A program made the position numbers and the translations under genes. From sequence record NC_054895.1: a DNA stretch of 48,466 bases. One strand, written 5' to 3'. How positions within the stretch are numbered: the first letter of the stretch is position 1; each line of letters starts with the position of its first letter. The notes under the pieces are model-generated. The model was given only the letters and a program-made list of their open reading frames with translations. It had not been told where the DNA came from and did no database searches. The DNA comes from Escherichia phage vB_Eco_SLUR29. Below, piece after piece: positions 6,837 to 43,870 of the stretch.

Positions 6837-7105
6837 TTTGTCTCGACGGTCATATGTTCTGTCTTCGTGCCTTTGCCATTGCTTTTCGACACTTCCCAGC
6901 TAGTAGCGCCCTTGCAGTTGGTGAAGTAAACAGTGCGATCGTCATAGAATCGGTAAACGGTGCAACCGTCAGCGGTGAATAGCTCCCTTACGCTGTAGTC
7001 ATCGCCAGGGTTAGCCATCTGCACATTGCCAACATGCGCGCCATCTTCTTTGCATCCGGTCAGGAATGCCATTGCCGCCAAAACGCTGATTAATGCCTTT
7101 TTCAT
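6833..7105 (-). CDS. lipoprotein (lipobox LTGC)
   Basis: signal peptide plus LTGC lipobox; 90 aa; AGAGGA SD. Confidence 0.55.
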   Translation of the reverse strand: MKKALISVLAAMAFLTGCKEDGAHVGNVQMANPGDDYSVRELFTADGCTVYRFYDDRTVYFTNCKGATSWEVSKSNGKGTKTEHMTVETK

Positions 7106-7569
7106 TGCTCTTCCTCTTTGATGATTTCGCGGATCATATCCTGGTAGCGGCTTACGCCCTCACAAGCTCCAGCCAGTTTATCCCCTTCCAGGTCAACGAT
7201 ATTCGGGATTGCTGCCAGTATGCGATCGGCAAACTTTTTGATCGCCCTTGCCTTGATGGCTGGCAATTCTTCGGGTGTGATGATTTTCCTTTTCGATTCG
7301 CGGACCATGCGGAAAACGTAAAATTTATCATCTTCCGTTTCCTCTACCTTGATGCTTACCCGACCTGCGGCCATTACTTCTGGAACGCGGTTGATAATGG
7401 TCCGGCTGTAGGATGAACTGCGCGTGATCTTGTAGCAGTCGTCACCGCTTAACATTCCGGCCAGGTCAATTAGTGACATTTTATACTCTTCAATATCGCC
7501 ACTAGCCAGGCGGCGACCAAGCTCGCGAAGCCAATCGCAATAGTCCTTAGTGGTCTTCTGTTCCATTTC
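7102..7569 (-). CDS. hypothetical protein (155 aa, MEQKTTKDY...)
   Basis: first gene of leftward early operon; GGAGGAAAGG SD; consensus sigma70 promoter immediately upstream. Confidence 0.55.
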   Translation of the reverse strand, partial: EMEQKTTKDYCDWLRELGRRLASGDIEEYKMSLIDLAGMLSGDDCYKITRSSSYSRTIINRVPEVMAAGRVSIKVEETEDDKFYVFRMVRESKRKIITPEELPAIKARAIKKFADRILAAIPNIVDLEGDKLAGACEGVSRYQDMIREIIKEEEQ

Positions 7570-7597: not shown

Positions 7598-7625
7598 ATT
7601 ATAAAAGCTATTTGGTGCGTGTCAA
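7598..7625 (-). promoter_or_regulatory. sigma70-type promoter (TTGACA-16-TATAAT) for leftward early operon
   Basis: minus-strand TTGACA at 7625..7620 and TATAAT at 7603..7598 with 16-nt spacer, about 30 nt upstream of ATG 7569. Confidence 0.6.
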
Positions 7626-7708
7626 TGTTTTTGTTGTATTCAAAACGTTACCAATATCGAAAAACTACAAAATCATGCGCAAGTTATTGATTTCGCGGCT
7701 GTTATTTT

Positions 7709-7910
7709 TCTGTTCACTCTGTTAACGCAATCCGCCGGAAAAAGTATATATACATATGCAATCCGCCGCGCGCGCAACTATCCATATATACCCACACACA
7801 ACCACACCATAACCAACAAAAAGCACTGTAACAGTGAGAACAAAAAGAAAACATTATAGATATATATAAATAAATAATCTTTATTTTCAATGTATTATAG
7901 AGGATTTTCT
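7709..7910. repeat. non-coding module R1 (paralogous to 28996..29200)
   Basis: shared ordered blocks GTTATTTTTCT, CGCCGG, TATATACATA, ACAACCACA, AAATAAATAA with the second divergent control region. Confidence 0.5.
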
Positions 7911-8059
7911 TTGTTTTTTCCGTTTTCGCTACACCGGAAAACCGCGCGGAAACACGCCGCCTGAAATCGGTAACAGGGGTGAACAAAAGACAACAACCAC
8001 TGACAGCCAGGCGGAAAAGTGAGGCAAGAGGGGAAGGTTTCACTATCTCCCCTGCAACC

Positions 8060-8157
8060 AATGATTAAACGTGATTACTTTTCTCATCAAATTTGCAAAG
8101 GCAATCATCATTTTGACGTGATTTGATTACGAATGATTACTTTTGATTATTTCGATC
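8060..8157. repeat. helically phased GATTA(C) direct repeats (iteron-like)
   Basis: five or more GATTA(A/C/T) copies at about 10-bp phasing (near 8063, 8073, 8128, 8138, 8147). Confidence 0.4.
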
Positions 8158-8180
8158 GCAATCCTGGCGATAACCGTCAA

Positions 8181-12817: not shown

Positions 12818-14398
12818 ATGTTTTCATTAGAAACGAACAAATTAACTCCACAGCAAATAATCGCTATGGCTGAAAGCCAGAACCTTTCACCAGTTCGCGT
12901 ATCAATTCAGGCTAACGGCTATCGCCAGTCGTCCAGCTTTTGGGGCGACGTAAAGGATGTGAATAGCGGTCACGATCGCTACCCCGTTATTTCTCTTGGT
13001 AATGATATTGATGTTGTCGGCAAGTTATCACGCAGCATTGCGCGATCCGTTCAATTCCCTGAATCATCGGCTTACATGCACTTTATCGGCTGCATTTCTG
13101 CCGCTATGCTTGGACGCTTTACGGTTGACTATCACGGAACCGATCAGCCGACTGCGCTTTACGTCGTTACAAGCCAGCCGCCGTCAACTGGTAAATCTGC
13201 GATCAACAGCATGGCTATTGCTCCGATGATTGCGGAAGTTGAGAAGATCAACGAGCAACGCCGCAAGGAAAGAAAGAAAATACAGGCAAAGCTGGCAGGT
13301 CTTGCAAAGGAGATGAAAAGCGAAAGATCCGGCGCTGATATGGAATCTCTATACCAGGAAAAAGAGGATCTGGAGGAAAAGCTGGAAAAAATGTGTGATA
13401 TAACTTTTCCTGTTTCAGATACAACTCCAGAAGGCTTGGCGAAAATCAACAACAAGCAAGGTAACTTTGCCGTAATTTCTGATGAAGCAACAAGTATTAA
13501 CAGTCTGTTAGGTTTGACCTATGCAAATAGCGAAAGGAAGACTAACAGTGAGTTAGTGCTTAAGGCGTGGGATAATGGTCACGTATCAATTGCCCGTGCT
13601 AATGCTGACAATAATATGAGTTTTCGCGCGCTTGGATGTATGAGCGTTATAGCCCAGGATGAAACGATAAGCGGAATCATGGACGCTGGATCGCGAGGCA
13701 TCGGTGTTAGTGAGCGTTTTTTGTTGGTCCGCGAGGAATCATTCTTAGGCCGTCGCTCATTCATTGATGAAAATGGTGATTCTACCTATGAGGCGGTGGA
13801 TTCTGAATTGAAAGCCCAATATTATCAATTGGTGCATAACATCATGAGCGAATCAAATATATCGCTGAAAATAAGCCGTTCAGCTATGCGAGTGCTCAAC
13901 ATTGCTCGCCAGGATATGGAACCGCATCTTGCAGACGGCGGAAAGTATTCTCATACAATGTTACGCGGTGCGCTTGGTAAAATGGATAAACAGGTGATCA
14001 GGCTTGCTTCCGTCCTGCATGTTATCCGTAACTGGTTTAATCCTGCCGGATACCCGCAGAAGTCGAAAGAGATCGACGTGGAAACAATGCAAGAGGCGTT
14101 GATCATGTTTCAGGAATTGAGCAAAACATACATTAGCGCCGCCAATGCTTCTGGTTATGCTGGTGATGATGCTGAAATGGGTAAATTGATTGAATTGATC
14201 ACGAGGCACGGCAAGGCTAACAAAGGGATCCTGAATATTCGCGCCCTGTACGAATCAGCGAGAAAGGTAAAACCTTTCGTTGGTCAGGCTGGCGTAATGA
14301 AAAGGATAGAAGGGCACTTACTGCCAATGCTGGAAGAAAGAAATTATGTTTGTGTGATTAATGGTGTTATTTTTGTCAATCCAATACTGCTGGGATGA
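12818..14398 (+). CDS. P-loop NTPase of unknown function (526 aa)
   Basis: Walker A-like PPSTGKSA and Walker B-like FAVISDEA; strong SD; function not assignable by eye. Confidence 0.7.
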   Translation: MFSLETNKLTPQQIIAMAESQNLSPVRVSIQANGYRQSSSFWGDVKDVNSGHDRYPVISLGNDIDVVGKLSRSIARSVQFPESSAYMHFIGCISAAMLGRFTVDYHGTDQPTALYVVTSQPPSTGKSAINSMAIAPMIAEVEKINEQRRKERKKIQAKLAGLAKEMKSERSGADMESLYQEKEDLEEKLEKMCDITFPVSDTTPEGLAKINNKQGNFAVISDEATSINSLLGLTYANSERKTNSELVLKAWDNGHVSIARANADNNMSFRALGCMSVIAQDETISGIMDAGSRGIGVSERFLLVREESFLGRRSFIDENGDSTYEAVDSELKAQYYQLVHNIMSESNISLKISRSAMRVLNIARQDMEPHLADGGKYSHTMLRGALGKMDKQVIRLASVLHVIRNWFNPAGYPQKSKEIDVETMQEALIMFQELSKTYISAANASGYAGDDAEMGKLIELITRHGKANKGILNIRALYESARKVKPFVGQAGVMKRIEGHLLPMLEERNYVCVINGVIFVNPILLG

Positions 14399-21718: not shown

Positions 21719-22195
21719 ATGAAAGATGCACGAATTGCGGTGTCTACGGGTGAGATCGACAAGCGCACTATTAACGGTAACAACGGAACGCGACGAGGTA
21801 AAGACAAAAAGCCACGAAAACACCGAACCGGATTTCTTATCCTGCGAGATGAGGTAAAAGCAAGCCTGAAATCTCGCTTGGATATTCTGATCGAGTATTA
21901 TGGCGGTGTTCCTGCTATGGCTCGACGTCTACGCGTATCTCAGCAAGTCGTTAACCAATGGCGAAAGCGTGGTATGATTTCAGCCGCTGGAGCACAAAAG
22001 GTGCATAACGACTACAAATATAATGGATGCAAAGGATACCGCGCATCATTTTGTCGTCCAGATCTGCGGTTTGATTCTAACGGTAAGCCTCTTACTACCC
22101 GTTGCGACAAATACGAGATGTTGCGCGTAGTCAAAAATTCAGACTACGAACCAGGCGGACGATTCTACAAAGGTGATAACAGCACAAATAGCTAA
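21719..22195 (+). CDS. HTH DNA-binding protein (Cro/YdaS-like)
   Basis: HTH-like GGVPAMARRLRVSQQVVNQWRKRG; GAGG SD. Confidence 0.6.
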   Translation: MKDARIAVSTGEIDKRTINGNNGTRRGKDKKPRKHRTGFLILRDEVKASLKSRLDILIEYYGGVPAMARRLRVSQQVVNQWRKRGMISAAGAQKVHNDYKYNGCKGYRASFCRPDLRFDSNGKPLTTRCDKYEMLRVVKNSDYEPGGRFYKGDNSTNS

Positions 22196-28886: not shown

Positions 28887-28914
28887 ATTGTAGCCATTTG
28901 GTTGATTTAGTCAA
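28887..28914 (-). promoter_or_regulatory. sigma70-type promoter (TTGACT-16-TACAAT) for recombination operon
   Basis: minus-strand hexamers at 28914..28909 and 28892..28887. Confidence 0.55.
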
Positions 28915-28995
28915 TAGTTGTTTTGTTTTTTCTGTTTTCTAAACGTTCTCAGATGGCAATAAAACAAATTTGACGCGTAAGTTAATGATTAATAT

Positions 28996-29200
28996 GTGTT
29001 ATTTTTCTTGTTCCCTTGTTCTCTCATATACGCCGGATTATATACATACACATGAATGATGGCGCATGCAGATACTCAGAAAGAAAAATCACCACAAACA
29101 ACCAAAACCACAAGAAACACAGATAACAAGAAAAAACAAATATACATACATAAATAAATAAACTATTGATTTTATATGTATATATCTATTTTATTGATTA
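28996..29200. repeat. non-coding module R2 (paralogous to 7709..7910)
   Basis: same ordered blocks as R1 (GTTATTTTTCT, CGCCGG, TATATACATA, ACAACCA, AAATAAATAA). Confidence 0.5.
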
Positions 29201-29283
29201 TTTATTGTTCTTATGTTGGCTAAAATTTGCGCTAAATTTACGCCGTCTTAAATTCGATAACACCGTAAAACAAAAAATAACAA

Positions 29284-29302
29284 GTAGCACTTTTTGCTAA
29301 AC
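29284..29302 (+). promoter_or_regulatory. degenerate copy of 19-mer element (GTAGCACTTTTTGCTAAAC) with -10-like TATAGT
   Basis: TATAGT 21 nt after TTGCTA; ACAACAACAAAGGAG leader; precedes lipoprotein gene. Confidence 0.45.
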
Positions 29303-29356
29303 GCGCGCCTTAAAATCGTGTATAGTTGAACCAACAACAACAAAGGAGATGAAAAG

Positions 29357-40076: not shown

Positions 40077-40095
40077 ATAGCACTTTTTGTTAAAA
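40077..40095 (+). promoter_or_regulatory. exact 19-mer copy in plus orientation inside leftward structural operon
   Basis: ATAGCACTTTTTGTTAAAA; TAGATT 22 nt after TTGTTA; about 45 nt before terminator at 40141; its reverse complement abuts SD of G gene. Confidence 0.45.
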
Positions 40096-40132
40096 GTGGA
40101 ATTAATTTATTTGATAGATTGATTTTACAGGA

Positions 40133-43826: not shown

Positions 43827-43845
43827 ATAGCACTTTTTGTTAAAC
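43827..43845 (+). promoter_or_regulatory. 19-mer copy (ATAGCACTTTTTGTTAAAC) in plus orientation inside structural operon
   Basis: 18/19 match; TATTAG 22 nt after TTGTTA. Confidence 0.4.
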
Positions 43846-43870
43846 GTGCAATGTTTTTTTATGCTATTAG

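What the first reader, a model, noticed from the sequence alone, without database searches (positions are those of the whole stretch)
7709..7910. Non-coding module R1, one of two paralogous ~200-bp modules in the divergent control regions
The 660-bp gene-free region between the divergent early operons contains a ~200-bp A/T- and CA-rich segment. It shares an ordered series of blocks with a segment in the second divergent region (28996-29200): GTTATTTTTCT, CGCCGG, TATATACATA, ACAACCACA, AAACA runs and AAATAAATAA. Both copies are in the same orientation and lie 300-450 bp upstream of a 19-mer element. The only ORF here (7714..8061) is low-complexity with no SD. Conservation of a non-coding paralog pair suggests function, for example a replication origin, a host-factor-bound architectural site, or a structured RNA.
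Basis: seen in the sequence. Interest (0 to 1): 0.7.

Follow-up and report, generated by a model that had tools for sequence, protein, structure and literature searches.

The report
Paired origin-like DNA modules in T1-like phage
The two similar non-coding stretches are real and are kept in every relative of phage T1 examined; each is a very A/T-rich core flanked by short, phased, oppositely oriented repeats, which makes them the first concrete candidates for this phage family's unidentified DNA replication origins.

Summary
The window is Escherichia phage tunus (Drexlerviridae). The R1/R2 similarity is real: z = 14.6 at the stated coordinates and z = 30 over the whole intergenic regions. There are only two copies, and the similarity runs further than reported (7626-8000 vs 28924-29284).

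Both modules share one ordered layout. A sigma-70 promoter points left. Then come a TGTT x3 array, a CGCCGGA motif, a TATATA block and a CA-rich spacer. An AACA x3 array leads into an A/T core, which holds the two most A/T-rich 80-bp windows of the 48 kb. After the core come an inverted TGTT array, a second CGCCGGA-like motif and another AACA x3 array.

The layout recurs in 43/43 R2 loci and all 31 untruncated R1 loci. The repeat word changes by lineage (rAACAr, GTGTAACA in T1, GGGACA) while the layout stays.

It is not coding and not a conserved RNA structure. The phage's DUF3987 helicase models as MCM-like with a C-terminal winged helix. Three of four distant DUF3987 phages carry a comparable element upstream of that helicase operon.

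Best reading: paired replication origins, or an origin plus helper site (about 0.5). Main rival: a control region for the divergent early promoters. No replication function has been demonstrated.

The parts
7598..7625 (-). Leftward sigma-70 promoter of the early-left operon (TTGACA-16-TATAAT, 12/12). Paralogous to 28887-28914.
   Evidence: aligned with the R2 promoter
7626..7650 (.). T-rich block TGTTTTTGTTGTATTCAAAACGTT directly upstream of the -35 (UP-element-like). This is the first block of the R1/R2 paralogy.
7680..7692 (-). AATCAATAACTTG, a perfect IHF core consensus (WATCAANNNNTTR). It lies in the family-conserved block GTAAGTnAnTGATT. The R2 counterpart at 28978-28990 has one mismatch.
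7700..7726 (-). Iteron array A: TGTT x3 (TGTTATTTTTCTGTTCACTCTGTTAAC), which reads rAACAr x3 on the - strand at 9-11 bp spacing.
   Evidence: inverted arm I1
7730..7739 (.). GC motif 1, ATCCGCCGGA (family consensus tTTrCGCCGGAt). In tunus GCAATCCGCCG is repeated at 7758-7768.
7744..7758 (.). GTATATATACATATG block of alternating purine and pyrimidine. TATATA-type words are almost confined to the two modules.
7780..7826 (+). CA-rich, G-poor spacer. It varies in sequence and length between genera, but its composition is conserved.
7828..7854 (+). Iteron array B: GTAACAGTGAGAACAAAAAGAAAACA (AACA x3, spacing 9-10 bp), pointing at the core.
7855..7904 (.). A/T core (DUE-like). The 80-bp window starting at 7839 is 85% A+T, the second highest in the 48 kb. 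It contains TTTCAATGTATTA, an IHF consensus with one mismatch (7885-7897).
7905..7927 (-). Iteron array C: TTTTCTTTGTTTTTTCCGTTTTC, in inverted orientation relative to array B.
   Evidence: I3: 7836-7851 / 7905-7920, 81% complementary
7944..7963 (.). GC motif 2, GCGCGGAAACACGCCGCCTG, a second copy of the CGCCGG-type motif. Family consensus ATTTTrCGCCGGA.
7970..7997 (+). Iteron array D: GTAACAGGGGTGAACAAAAGACAACAAC (AACA x3-4). It includes GGTGAACA.
8000..8180 (.). R1-only insert, absent from R2, with TGATTA/TGATTT repeats (8062-8150). The T1, TLS and haarsle records start in the positionally equivalent stretch, so it probably holds pac. It is not part of the shared module.
   Evidence: PMC11447400
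8182..8224 (+). 19-mer TAGCACTTTTTGTTAAAAC plus a -10-like TACATT. This is the rightward promoter region of the operon that ends with the DUF3987 helicase. The element has 15 copies in the window.
28887..28914 (-). R2: leftward sigma-70 promoter of recE-erf-ssb (TTGACT-16-TACAAT).
28997..29024 (-). R2 iteron array A: TGTTATTTTTCTTGTTCCCTTGTTCTC.
   Evidence: (I3)
29030..29055 (.). R2 GC motif 1 (ACGCCGGAT) followed by the TATATACATACACATG block.
29075..29112 (+). R2 CA-rich, G-poor spacer.
29114..29139 (+). R2 iteron array B: GAAACACAGATAACAAGAAAAAACAA.
29140..29203 (.). R2 A/T core. The 80-bp window starting at 29123 is 88% A+T, the highest in the window. It carries a perfect IHF consensus, AATCAATAGTTTA, at 29159-29171 (-).
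29201..29219 (-). R2 iteron array C (inverted): TTTATTGTTCTTATGTTGG.
   Evidence: I4
29237..29247 (.). R2 GC motif 2: TTTACGCCGTC.
29257..29284 (+). R2 iteron array D: GATAACACCGTAAAACAAAAAATAACAAG. It abuts the 19-mer at 29285-29303.
12818..14398 (+). Candidate trans-factor: DUF3987 helicase. The model has an MCM-like AAA+ fold and a C-terminal winged helix (residues 450-526).
   Evidence: PMC4889955
21719..22195 (+). Alternative candidate trans-factor: a Cro/YdaS-type HTH protein (T1 ST23 homolog) whose gene overlaps the start of the primase gene.

Best explanation
R1 (about 7626-8000) and R2 (about 28924-29284) are two copies of a DNA-level cis-element that works as a replication-origin module. 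They are either two origins, or an origin plus a helper site bound by the same protein.

**Anatomy (shown).** Each copy has an easily melted A/T core, often carrying an IHF-type bending site. Short phased iterons flank it and point at it from both sides (AACA x3, then the core, then inverted TGTT x2). Two further arrays lie outside these, and a CGCCGGA-type motif occurs twice.

**Mechanism (inferred).**
1. A phage-encoded sequence-specific protein binds the arrays. The best candidate is the winged-helix C-terminus of the MCM-like DUF3987 helicase. The alternative is the Cro-like HTH protein encoded next to the primase.
2. IHF, together with the negative supercoiling generated between the two strong divergent promoters, helps the core to open.
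3. The helicase then loads on both sides of the core, and the P4-alpha-type primase starts synthesis.

Replication initiation itself has not been shown. The binding protein, the melting step and the division of labour between R1 and R2 are all inferred.
For: 1. **Real paralogy.** z = 14.6 to 30, and only two copies in the window.
2. **Most meltable DNA.** The cores are the two most A/T-rich 80-bp windows of the 48 kb. The same holds at a fixed position in 43/43 R2 loci (270-380 bp from recE) and in all 31 untruncated R1 loci.
3. **Shared positional profile.** Anchored on the core, R1 and R2 give the same pattern: TGTT at -170..-150, AACA at -60..-30, neither word in the core, TGTT at +20..+50, AACA at +80..+110. 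Ordered conserved blocks are seen across genera.
4. **Helical phasing.** AACA-AACA spacing is 9-10 bp in 131 of 181 spacings of 25 bp or less. Phased AACA triplets occur 5 times in 48 kb, and all 5 are in the modules. Inverted arms are confirmed.
5. **Layout kept while the word changes.**
   - In T1, TGTAACA/TGTTACA occurs 6 times in 48.8 kb, and all 6 are in R1 or R2.
   - One lineage uses GGGACA x2, core, TGTCCC x2, GGGACA x2.
   - T1 R1 matches T1 R2 (score 66) better than it matches the other 12 genomes' R1 or R2 (27-46).
   - T1 and tunus share a host, so a co-evolving phage factor fits better than a host factor.
6. **IHF sites.** A perfect IHF core consensus lies in 13/32 R1 and 14/43 R2 cores, against about 1 expected from shuffles.
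8. **Known precedent.** SaPI origins are 6-12 short iterons around a central AT-rich region. At least two iterons on each side point in opposite directions, and the winged helix of a self-loading helicase binds them (PMC9371898).
9. **Recurrence in distant phages.** In three of four phages whose DUF3987 helicase is 36-41% identical, the intergenic region just upstream of the helicase operon has an A/T-rich centre flanked by lineage-specific iterons. In L097 and L100 the iterons are separated by orientation to left and right of a TATATA core. In L098 both orientations occur on both sides, and the centre is an (AAC)13 run plus an A/T tract. Enrichment in those regions: G5/C5 16 of 19, GGGGT/ACCCC 12 of 15, TGTAAG/CTTACA 10 of 15.
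10. **Operon position.** R1 heads the operon that encodes the helicase.
11. **No competing origin.** None is known for T1-like phages (PMC11447400).
Against: - There are no replication data of any kind.
- Both modules lie exactly between divergent promoters. Their left edge keeps a fixed distance to the leftward promoter, so promoter control could explain much of the conservation.
- In T1 an inverted GTGTAACAC pair sits between the -35 and the start of the first gene, which looks like an operator.
- Neither module is adjacent to the helicase gene in tunus (4.5 kb and 15 kb away).
- No binding protein has been shown. The winged-helix assignment rests on a predicted structure.
- The comparative counts come from related sequences and are not independent.
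- One of the four distant phages (L099) showed no clear element.
- GC skew only tracks gene orientation.
- There are no DnaA boxes, although the model does not need them.
Confidence: 0.5

Rival explanations
1. The module is a transcription-control and architectural region for the divergent early promoters. A phage regulator, for example the Cro-like ST23 homolog, binds the arrays. IHF bends the core, and the resulting complex activates or later shuts off the leftward sigma-70 promoter and the rightward 19-mer promoter. No role in replication is implied.
For: - The module fills the whole space between two divergent promoters in R2.
- Its distance to the leftward promoter and to recE is fixed across the family.
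- IHF consensus sites lie about -96 from the leftward promoter and in the core.
- In T1 an inverted GTGTAACAC pair lies between the -35 and the first gene, like an operator.
- An HTH regulator family is encoded by the phage.
Against: - Only 2 of at least 15 promoter regions carry the module, and a 300-bp, four-array element with the most meltable DNA of the genome is far more than an operator needs.
- The same layout recurs directly upstream of DUF3987 helicase operons in distant phages with quite different iterons. It also matches the SaPI origin layout (PMC9371898).
- Dual use, as an origin that also autoregulates, is common for iteron replicons. This rival therefore overlaps with the best explanation rather than excluding it.
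Confidence: 0.27
2. The module is a packaging recognition (pac) site. The small terminase subunit binds the repeat arrays on both sides of a bendable centre, as at P1 pac or SPP1 pacL/pacR.
For: - The T1, TLS and other isolate records start inside the R1 intergenic region, and T1's terminal repeat begins there.
- Restriction mapping places the TLS pac site in this region (PMC11447400).
- Repeat arrays around a bendable, IHF-associated centre resemble P1 pac (from memory).
Against: - Record starts map 85-125 bp upstream of the rightward 19-mer. That places them in the R1-only insert to the right of the shared module. In T1 the core is at 214-294, inside the terminal repeat.
- R2 has the module but not that insert. 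A second pac 21 kb away would give a second set of ends, whereas one submolar pac fragment is reported for TLS (PMC11447400).
Confidence: 0.05
3. The module encodes a non-coding RNA or a structured leader. The inverted TGTT/AACA arms would form its stems.
For: - The fold z-score is -3.7 for the R1 + strand and -3.4 for the R2 - strand.
- The arrays are partly complementary.
Against: - The significant strand differs between the two co-oriented copies. R1 - gives z = -0.8 and R2 + gives z = -0.6, as expected from DNA-level inverted repeats.
- RNAalifold on 46 non-redundant cores gives no consensus structure on either strand.
- Rfam gives nothing at gathering thresholds and only chance hits at E > 0.3.
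- No promoter reads into the module.
- Arm spacings differ by indels, so register is not kept.
Confidence: 0.03
4. The module has no specific function. The similarity would be a leftover of an old duplication of a promoter region, plus general A/T richness of intergenic DNA.
For: - Intergenic phage DNA is often A/T-rich.
- Global identity between A/T-rich sequences is inflated, with a baseline of about 0.6.
Against: - R1 orthologs between genera (scores 40-100) are no more alike than R1-R2 paralogs (40-98). Neutral sequence has therefore saturated, and only shared constrained blocks remain.
- The positional architecture, the phasing and the module-exclusive words are far beyond shuffle expectations.
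Confidence: 0.02

Closest known systems
SaPI replication origins with Rep self-loading initiator-helicases (Staphylococcus pathogenicity islands; PMC9371898)
   Same: - Short (5-6 nt) iterons, 6-12 per origin.
- A central AT-rich region with at least two iterons on each side pointing in opposite directions.
- The cognate protein is a hexameric helicase (SaPIbov1/SaPI2 Rep is SF6, MCM-like) that reads iterons through a C-terminal winged helix.
- Iteron sequence differs between lineages while the layout is kept.
   Different: - There is no sequence homology.
- The SaPI ori lies immediately downstream of rep. R1 and R2 are 4.5 kb and 15 kb from the helicase gene.
- The phage has two copies, four arrays per copy, an extra CGCCGGA-type motif, IHF-like sites and flanking divergent promoters.
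- Binding and melting have been shown for SaPI but not here.
Satellite phage P4 ori plus crr, bound by the alpha protein
   Same: - Two separate cis regions several kb apart carry the same short iteron in arrays at 10-11 bp spacing (GGTGAACAgtGGTGAACAgacGGTGAACAg; record annotation).
- The iteron word is similar: TGTTCACC against TGTTCAC / GGTGAACA / rAACAr.
- The tunus primase is homologous to the alpha primase domain (24% identity, E 2e-14).
   Different: - The exact P4 octamer occurs only once in the tunus modules.
- No homolog of alpha's helicase or C-terminal origin-binding domain is found in the window.
- The helicase is a separate MCM-like protein.
- P4 crr is a tandem 120-bp duplication, not a copy of the ori layout.
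Bacillus phage SPP1 oriL and oriR (from memory; context in PMC3561973, PMC5737612, abstracts only)
   Same: - A virulent pac-type siphophage with two distant, related origin regions.
- Both regions are bound by one phage initiator and lie next to A/T-rich DNA.
   Different: - The initiator is different (G38P), as are the repeats.
- oriL lies inside the initiator gene.
- The helicase is DnaB-like and has a loader.
Iteron plasmid origins (pSC101, R6K gamma and similar; review PMC4980987, not read in detail)
   Same: - Iterons plus an A/T-rich DUE plus an IHF site.
- Inverted iteron copies at a promoter serve for autoregulation. Compare the T1 GTGTAACAC pair at the ST77 promoter.
   Different: - Plasmid iterons are 17-22 bp direct repeats at about 22-bp spacing, bound by Rep monomers, and usually DnaA-dependent.
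- Here the repeats are 5-8 bp at 9-10 bp spacing in inverted arrays, and there are no DnaA boxes.

Membership tests
SaPI-type origin (iterons around an AT-rich centre, read by a self-loading helicase) | Six to twelve short (5-6 nt) iterons | tested here: met
   Each module has three phased rAACAr triplets, or near-triplets, plus an inverted doublet or triplet, giving about 11 copies.
SaPI-type origin (iterons around an AT-rich centre, read by a self-loading helicase) | AT-rich region at the centre, with at least 2 iterons on each side pointing in opposite directions | tested here: met
   The layout is AACA x3, then a core of 85-88% A+T, then inverted TGTT x2-3. It is the same in 31 R1 and 42-43 R2 sequences. 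A GGGACA/TGTCCC version exists in lineage L081.
SaPI-type origin (iterons around an AT-rich centre, read by a self-loading helicase) | The element encodes a hexameric helicase with a C-terminal winged-helix domain | tested here: met
   [not shown]
SaPI-type origin (iterons around an AT-rich centre, read by a self-loading helicase) | The helicase binds the iterons and melts the origin, and the origin supports replication | not testable with these tools
   This needs EMSA or footprinting, KMnO4 probing, and plasmid replication or marker-frequency assays.
SaPI-type origin (iterons around an AT-rich centre, read by a self-loading helicase) | Origin immediately adjacent to the initiator-helicase gene | tested here: not met
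   R1 is 4.5 kb upstream of the helicase gene in the same operon, and R2 is about 15 kb away. Adjacency on the upstream side is seen in the distant DUF3987 phages L097, L098 and L100.
P4 ori/crr system | Type 1 iteron TGTTCACC in both cis regions | tested here: not met
   The P4 record confirms TGTTCACC. The tunus modules have one GGTGAACA and one TGTTCAC, and otherwise degenerate rAACAr.
P4 ori/crr system | Alpha protein combining primase, helicase and a C-terminal origin-binding domain | tested here: not met
   Only alpha residues 20-263 (primase) have a homolog in the window. The Pfam hit is Zn_Ribbon_Prim only.
P4 ori/crr system | Two separated cis regions sharing the same iterons | tested here: met
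   R1 and R2 lie 21 kb apart and have the same layout and words. In T1 all six TGTAACA sites are confined to the two regions.
DnaA-dependent oriC-type origin | Cluster of DnaA boxes (TTWTNCACA) next to the DUE | tested here: not met
   Each intergenic region has one site with a single mismatch, against 84 such sites in the whole window.
Lambda-type origin (iterons inside the initiator gene) | Iteron array within a replication gene | tested here: not met
   Phased AACA triplets occur only in the two intergenic modules. The TLS authors also found none in the helicase gene (PMC11447400).
IHF-bound architectural site | Match to WATCAANNNNTTR in an A/T-rich context | tested here: inconclusive
   Perfect matches lie at 7680-7692 and 29159-29171, out of 6 in the window. 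Perfect sites occur in 13/32 R1 and 14/43 R2 cores against about 1 expected. The site is not universal, the sequences are related, and binding was not tested.
Structured non-coding RNA (Rfam family or new) | Conserved secondary structure with covariation on one strand, or an Rfam match | tested here: not met
   See (no Rfam match; significant strand inconsistent between copies; no RNAalifold consensus).
pac site | Coincides with the packaging start or the physical genome end | tested here: not met
   The T1, TLS and haarsle record starts map into the R1-only insert to the right of the shared module, and R2 lacks that insert.

The most novel reading that the evidence does not exclude
The two modules are the loading sites of a bacterial-virus MCM-like helicase. 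Its winged-helix domains read inverted iteron arrays, so that two hexamers assemble facing each other across the A/T core. R1 and R2 would cooperate as a coupled pair, for example by looping like P4 ori-crr, or with R1 present in both terminal repeats of the infecting DNA. That arrangement would tie replication start to early divergent transcription and to the neighbouring pac site. It would give a simple phage model for origin-directed MCM double-hexamer loading without ORC, Cdc6 or Cdt1.
Probability: 0.15. Interest if true: 0.8.

Novelty: new member of a known kind. Interest (0 to 1): 0.6.

Why it matters
- **An old gap.** Phage T1 is one of the original T phages, yet its replication origin has never been located. 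A 2024 reannotation of the relative TLS states that no origin-like repeats were found (PMC11447400).
- **Precise targets.** The finding names two sites, conserved across the family, and two candidate binding proteins. The question can now be tested directly with marker-frequency sequencing, origin-trap plasmids and footprinting.
- **Wider reach.** DUF3987 (MCM-related) helicases are widespread in phages and mobile elements, but their origins are poorly defined. A rule such as 'A/T core with lineage-specific iterons at the head of the helicase operon' could help find them elsewhere.
- **Practical use.** It would help in engineering or rebooting T1-like therapeutic phages, and in understanding T1 contamination of laboratories.

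Tried and rejected
- **P4 alpha origin-binding domain.** tblastn of alpha against the window finds the primase domain only. PDB sequence searches with the primase, the HTH protein and the helicase gave nothing useful.
- **First gene of the left operon as a Rep-like binder.** The gene 7102..7566 is DUF7174 / phrog_4841 of unknown function, barely alignable to T1 ST77. I found no support and did not pursue it.
- **DnaA boxes and GATC clusters.** Absent.
- **Cumulative GC/AT skew.** It follows gene strand only and says nothing about an origin.
- **Rfam, single-sequence folding and RNAalifold.** No RNA signal.
- **Internal promoters or terminators.** Only the two leftward promoters were found, plus one weak terminator-like hairpin at 7824-7836, which is the GTAACAG palindrome of array B.
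- **Module-like DNA in E. coli genomes or plasmids** (a possible satellite or captured origin). None found.
- **Global identity comparison of R1 and R2.** Uninformative, because the A/T-rich baseline is about 0.6. Replaced by local scores.
- **Viral-contig scan for GGGACA arrays**, intended to find the R2 of lineage L081.
- **Literature searches.** Searches for Drexlerviridae transcription start sites, for a T1 origin, and for TGTTCACC returned nothing usable; the last returned only primer noise.
Full report
**Identity and context.** The window matches Escherichia phage tunus (MN850638; Drexlerviridae, Tempevirinae, Warwickvirus) at 100% over the R1 region.
- R1 lies between two divergent clusters of small early genes.
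- The rightward cluster runs on to a Dcm-like methylase and a 526-aa DUF3987 helicase.
- R2 lies between the leftward recE-erf-ssb recombination genes and a rightward Cor-like lipoprotein gene.

- The stated segments align far better than shuffles: score 71 against 21.0 +/- 3.4, z = 14.6.
- The whole intergenic regions give z = 30.3, and the reverse-complement control is much weaker.
- blastn finds exactly one partner for each region (E = 1e-12).
- Four of the five listed blocks are exact in both copies. ACAACCACA is exact only in R1.
- The similarity is wider than reported. It starts directly upstream of the leftward sigma-70 promoters (7625..7598, 12/12 matches; 28914..28887, 10/12). It runs to about 8000 in R1 and 29284 in R2.
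- R1 then has a 180-bp insert that R2 lacks.
- The '19-mer' is a 15-copy element. It was already published as the 21-nt repeat of TLS/T1, with unknown function (PMC11447400). It is not specific to the pair.

**Anatomy.** In window orientation both modules read as follows:
1. leftward promoter;
2. T-rich UP-like block;
3. conserved GTAAGTnAnTGATT, which in R1 is a perfect IHF core consensus on the - strand (7680-7692);
4. TGTT x3 array;
5. tTTrCGCCGGAt motif;
6. (G)TATATACATA block;
7. a CA-rich, G-poor spacer of variable sequence;
8. AACA x3 array;
9. A/T core;
10. inverted TGTT x2-3 array;
11. a second CGCCGGA-type motif;
12. AACA x3 array;
13. rightward promoter region.

Supporting measurements:
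- The two cores are the two most A/T-rich 80-bp windows of the 48 kb (88% at 29123, 85% at 7839).
- Phased AACA triplets occur five times in the window, and all five are in the modules.
- TATATA-type words are almost confined to the modules.
- The repeat finder confirms the inverted arms: 7700-7724/7829-7853, 7836-7851/7905-7920, 28993-29012/29125-29144 and 29198-29209/29269-29280.
- On the + strand, composition is A/C-rich and G-poor from -140 to -20. It flips to T-rich at the core centre, in both R1 and R2.

**Family-wide conservation.**
- I fetched 43 loci around recE homologs (57-100% identity) and 45 around the helicase (63-100%).
- In every R2 locus the most A/T-rich 80-bp window lies 270-380 bp upstream of recE.
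- In every R1 locus not cut by a record end, one outstanding A/T window lies 3.3-5.6 kb upstream of the helicase.
- Anchored on the core, R1 (32 distinct sequences) and R2 (43) show the same TGTT/AACA profile.
- AACA-AACA spacing is 9-10 bp in 131 of 181 spacings of 25 bp or less.
- Within-genome R1-R2 similarity is significant in all 14 genomes where I had both copies (z = 8-27).

**Evidence for a shared, co-evolving reader.**
- Between genera, R1 orthologs are no more alike (scores about 40-100) than R1-R2 paralogs (about 40-98). What remains is therefore the constrained set of blocks common to both copies.
- T1 R1 matches T1 R2 (66) better than it matches the other 12 genomes' R1 or R2 (27-46).
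- In T1 the repeat word is GTGTAACA/TGTTACA. That 7-mer occurs six times in 48.8 kb, and all six are in the two regions.
- Another lineage (L081) keeps the layout with a different word: GGGACA x2, core, TGTCCC x2, GGGACA x2.
- T1 and tunus both grow on E. coli K-12. A phage-encoded reader therefore fits better than a host factor.
- These counts come from related sequences and are not independent events.

**Not coding, not RNA.**
- ORF 7714..8061 (-) has a TTG start and no Shine-Dalgarno sequence. It is frameshifted in a 97.7%-identical relative and carries stops in two others.
- RNA fold z-scores are significant on opposite strands in the two co-oriented copies: R1 + at -3.7 and R2 - at -3.4, against R1 - at -0.8 and R2 + at -0.6. 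DNA-level inverted repeats would give this pattern.
- RNAalifold on 46 non-redundant cores finds no consensus structure on either strand.
- Rfam gives nothing.
- No promoter reads into the module.

**Candidate trans-factors.**
- *The DUF3987 helicase (12818..14398).*
  - It models confidently (pLDDT 87.6).
  - Residues 450-526 form a winged helix that also hits ORC2 and Cdc6 winged-helix domains.
  - This agrees with the published assignment of DUF3987 to SF6 helicases with a C-terminal wHTH (PMC4889955) and with a biochemically shown DUF3987 helicase (PMC11724360).
- *The Cro/YdaS-type HTH protein (21719..22195).*
  - It is the T1 ST23 homolog, and its gene overlaps the primase start.
- *The primase.*
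  - It is homologous only to the primase part of P4 alpha.

**Independent comparative support.** I looked at four distant phages whose DUF3987 helicase is 36-41% identical. In three of them, the intergenic region directly upstream of the helicase operon has an A/T-rich centre flanked by lineage-specific short repeats.
- *L097:* G5 repeats on the left and C5 on the right of a TATATA core. 16 of 19 occurrences in the 21.5-kb locus fall in this 622-bp region.
- *L100:* GGGGT on the left and ACCCC on the right of a TATATA core (12 of 15).
- *L098:* TGTAAG/CTTACA (10 of 15), with both orientations on both sides of an (AAC)13 run plus an A/T tract.
- *L099:* unclear.
- In L097 the small gene between that region and the helicase is a homolog of the tunus HTH protein (E 4e-7).

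**Relation to pac.**
- The T1 record starts inside the R1-equivalent region, and its 2.8-kb terminal repeat begins there.
- The T1 core lies at 214-294, inside the repeat.
- T1, TLS and haarsle records all start 85-125 bp upstream of the rightward 19-mer. That is in the stretch corresponding to the R1-only insert, to the right of the shared module.
- Restriction mapping placed the TLS pac site in this area (PMC11447400).
- The insert, not the shared module, is therefore the likely pac region. This also explains why R2 lacks it.

**Most likely mechanism.** The anatomy matches an iteron-flanked DNA-unwinding element. The closest described layout is the SaPI origin. That origin has 6-12 short iterons and a central AT-rich region, with at least two iterons on each side pointing in opposite directions. 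The winged helix of a self-loading helicase reads the iterons (PMC9371898).

I propose the following, all inferred:
1. A phage protein binds the arrays. The helicase winged helix is the first choice and the HTH protein the second.
2. IHF bending and the negative supercoiling between the divergent promoters help the core to open.
3. The helicase loads on both sides.

Whether R1 and R2 are two origins or an origin plus a helper is open. P4 ori/crr and SPP1 oriL/oriR are precedents for a pair.

I put this at about 0.5. The main rival is a control region for the divergent early promoters (about 0.27). The fixed distance to the leftward promoter and the operator-like T1 inverted pair support it, and it may coexist with an origin role. 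The pac, RNA and no-function readings are unlikely.

**Comparison and novelty.**
- The module works like a SaPI-type or P4-type origin but is not a member by homology. The P4 octamer and alpha's binding domain are absent, there are no DnaA boxes, and the origin is not adjacent to the helicase gene.
- In the held literature I found no description of this pair or of any origin in T1-like phages. The TLS paper states that none was found.
- I rate it a new member of a known kind, with good practical interest, because it makes the T1 origin question directly testable.

Noticed in passing
window 4203, 6817, 8182, 8569, 9874, 12073, 12747, 14909, 18150, 19199, 21688, 23250, 29285, 40078, 43828: Most copies of the 19-mer TAGCACTTTTTGTTAAAAC are followed by a GC-rich inverted repeat. 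Its sequence differs from copy to copy, but the dyad is kept. A -10-like TAnnnT lies about 18-19 nt after the 19-mer. The TTGTTA within the 19-mer is about 22 nt from that hexamer, too far to serve as a sigma-70 -35. The arrangement looks like an activator box plus dyad plus -10. The function of this repeat is listed as an open question in PMC11447400.
   Followed up: partly
window 40078-40096 and 43828-43846 (+ strand): Two 19-mer copies point against the - strand structural genes. They could be antisense or internal promoters. The copy at 40078 is followed by a terminator-like hairpin (GGGGCGCAACGCCCC).
   Followed up: no
window 8000-8180: The R1-only insert carries about six TGATTA/TGATTT repeats. 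T1, TLS and haarsle GenBank records start in the positionally equivalent stretch, 85-125 bp upstream of the rightward 19-mer. It is probably the pac region.
   Followed up: partly
[not shown]
   Followed up: yes
window 21719-22195 and L097 9681-9995: The gene for a Cro/YdaS-type HTH protein overlaps the start of the primase gene in tunus. In a distant 78-kb phage contig its homolog sits directly between the origin-like region and the DUF3987 gene.
   Followed up: partly
L097 9059-9681; L100 67-633; L098 4202-4760: Distant DUF3987 phages have A/T cores with lineage-specific iterons (G5/C5, GGGGT/ACCCC, TGTAAG/CTTACA) just upstream of the helicase operon. L098 has an (AAC)13 run in place of the CA-rich spacer.
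   Followed up: partly
phage records MG0656xx ('Campylobacter phage' A14a, A136, E6 and others): About 18 records labelled as Campylobacter jejuni phages match R1 and R2 of this coliphage family at 72-82% identity. They look like T1-like coliphage genomes that are mislabelled or come from contamination.
   Followed up: no
GenBank records OR912983, OR896819, OR896836, ON716453: Two to four 'hypothetical proteins' are annotated under the R1 match in some relatives. The tunus and BASEL records annotate none there. The one long ORF is not conserved, so these are probably over-calls.
   Followed up: partly
window 7727-7768: A tunus-lineage direct repeat, GCAATCCGCCG, occurs at 7727 and 7758 and brackets the TATATACATA block. 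A CGCGCGCGC run follows. R2 has a single copy of the motif.
   Followed up: no
L178 1790-1900; L134 1280-1410; L139 5455-5580; L112 8480-8740: Unrelated viral contigs picked up by the GGGACA scan show triplet GGGACA arrays facing TGTCCC arrays across a 60-200-bp spacer. This may be the same kind of origin layout in other elements. I did not examine their context.
   Followed up: no
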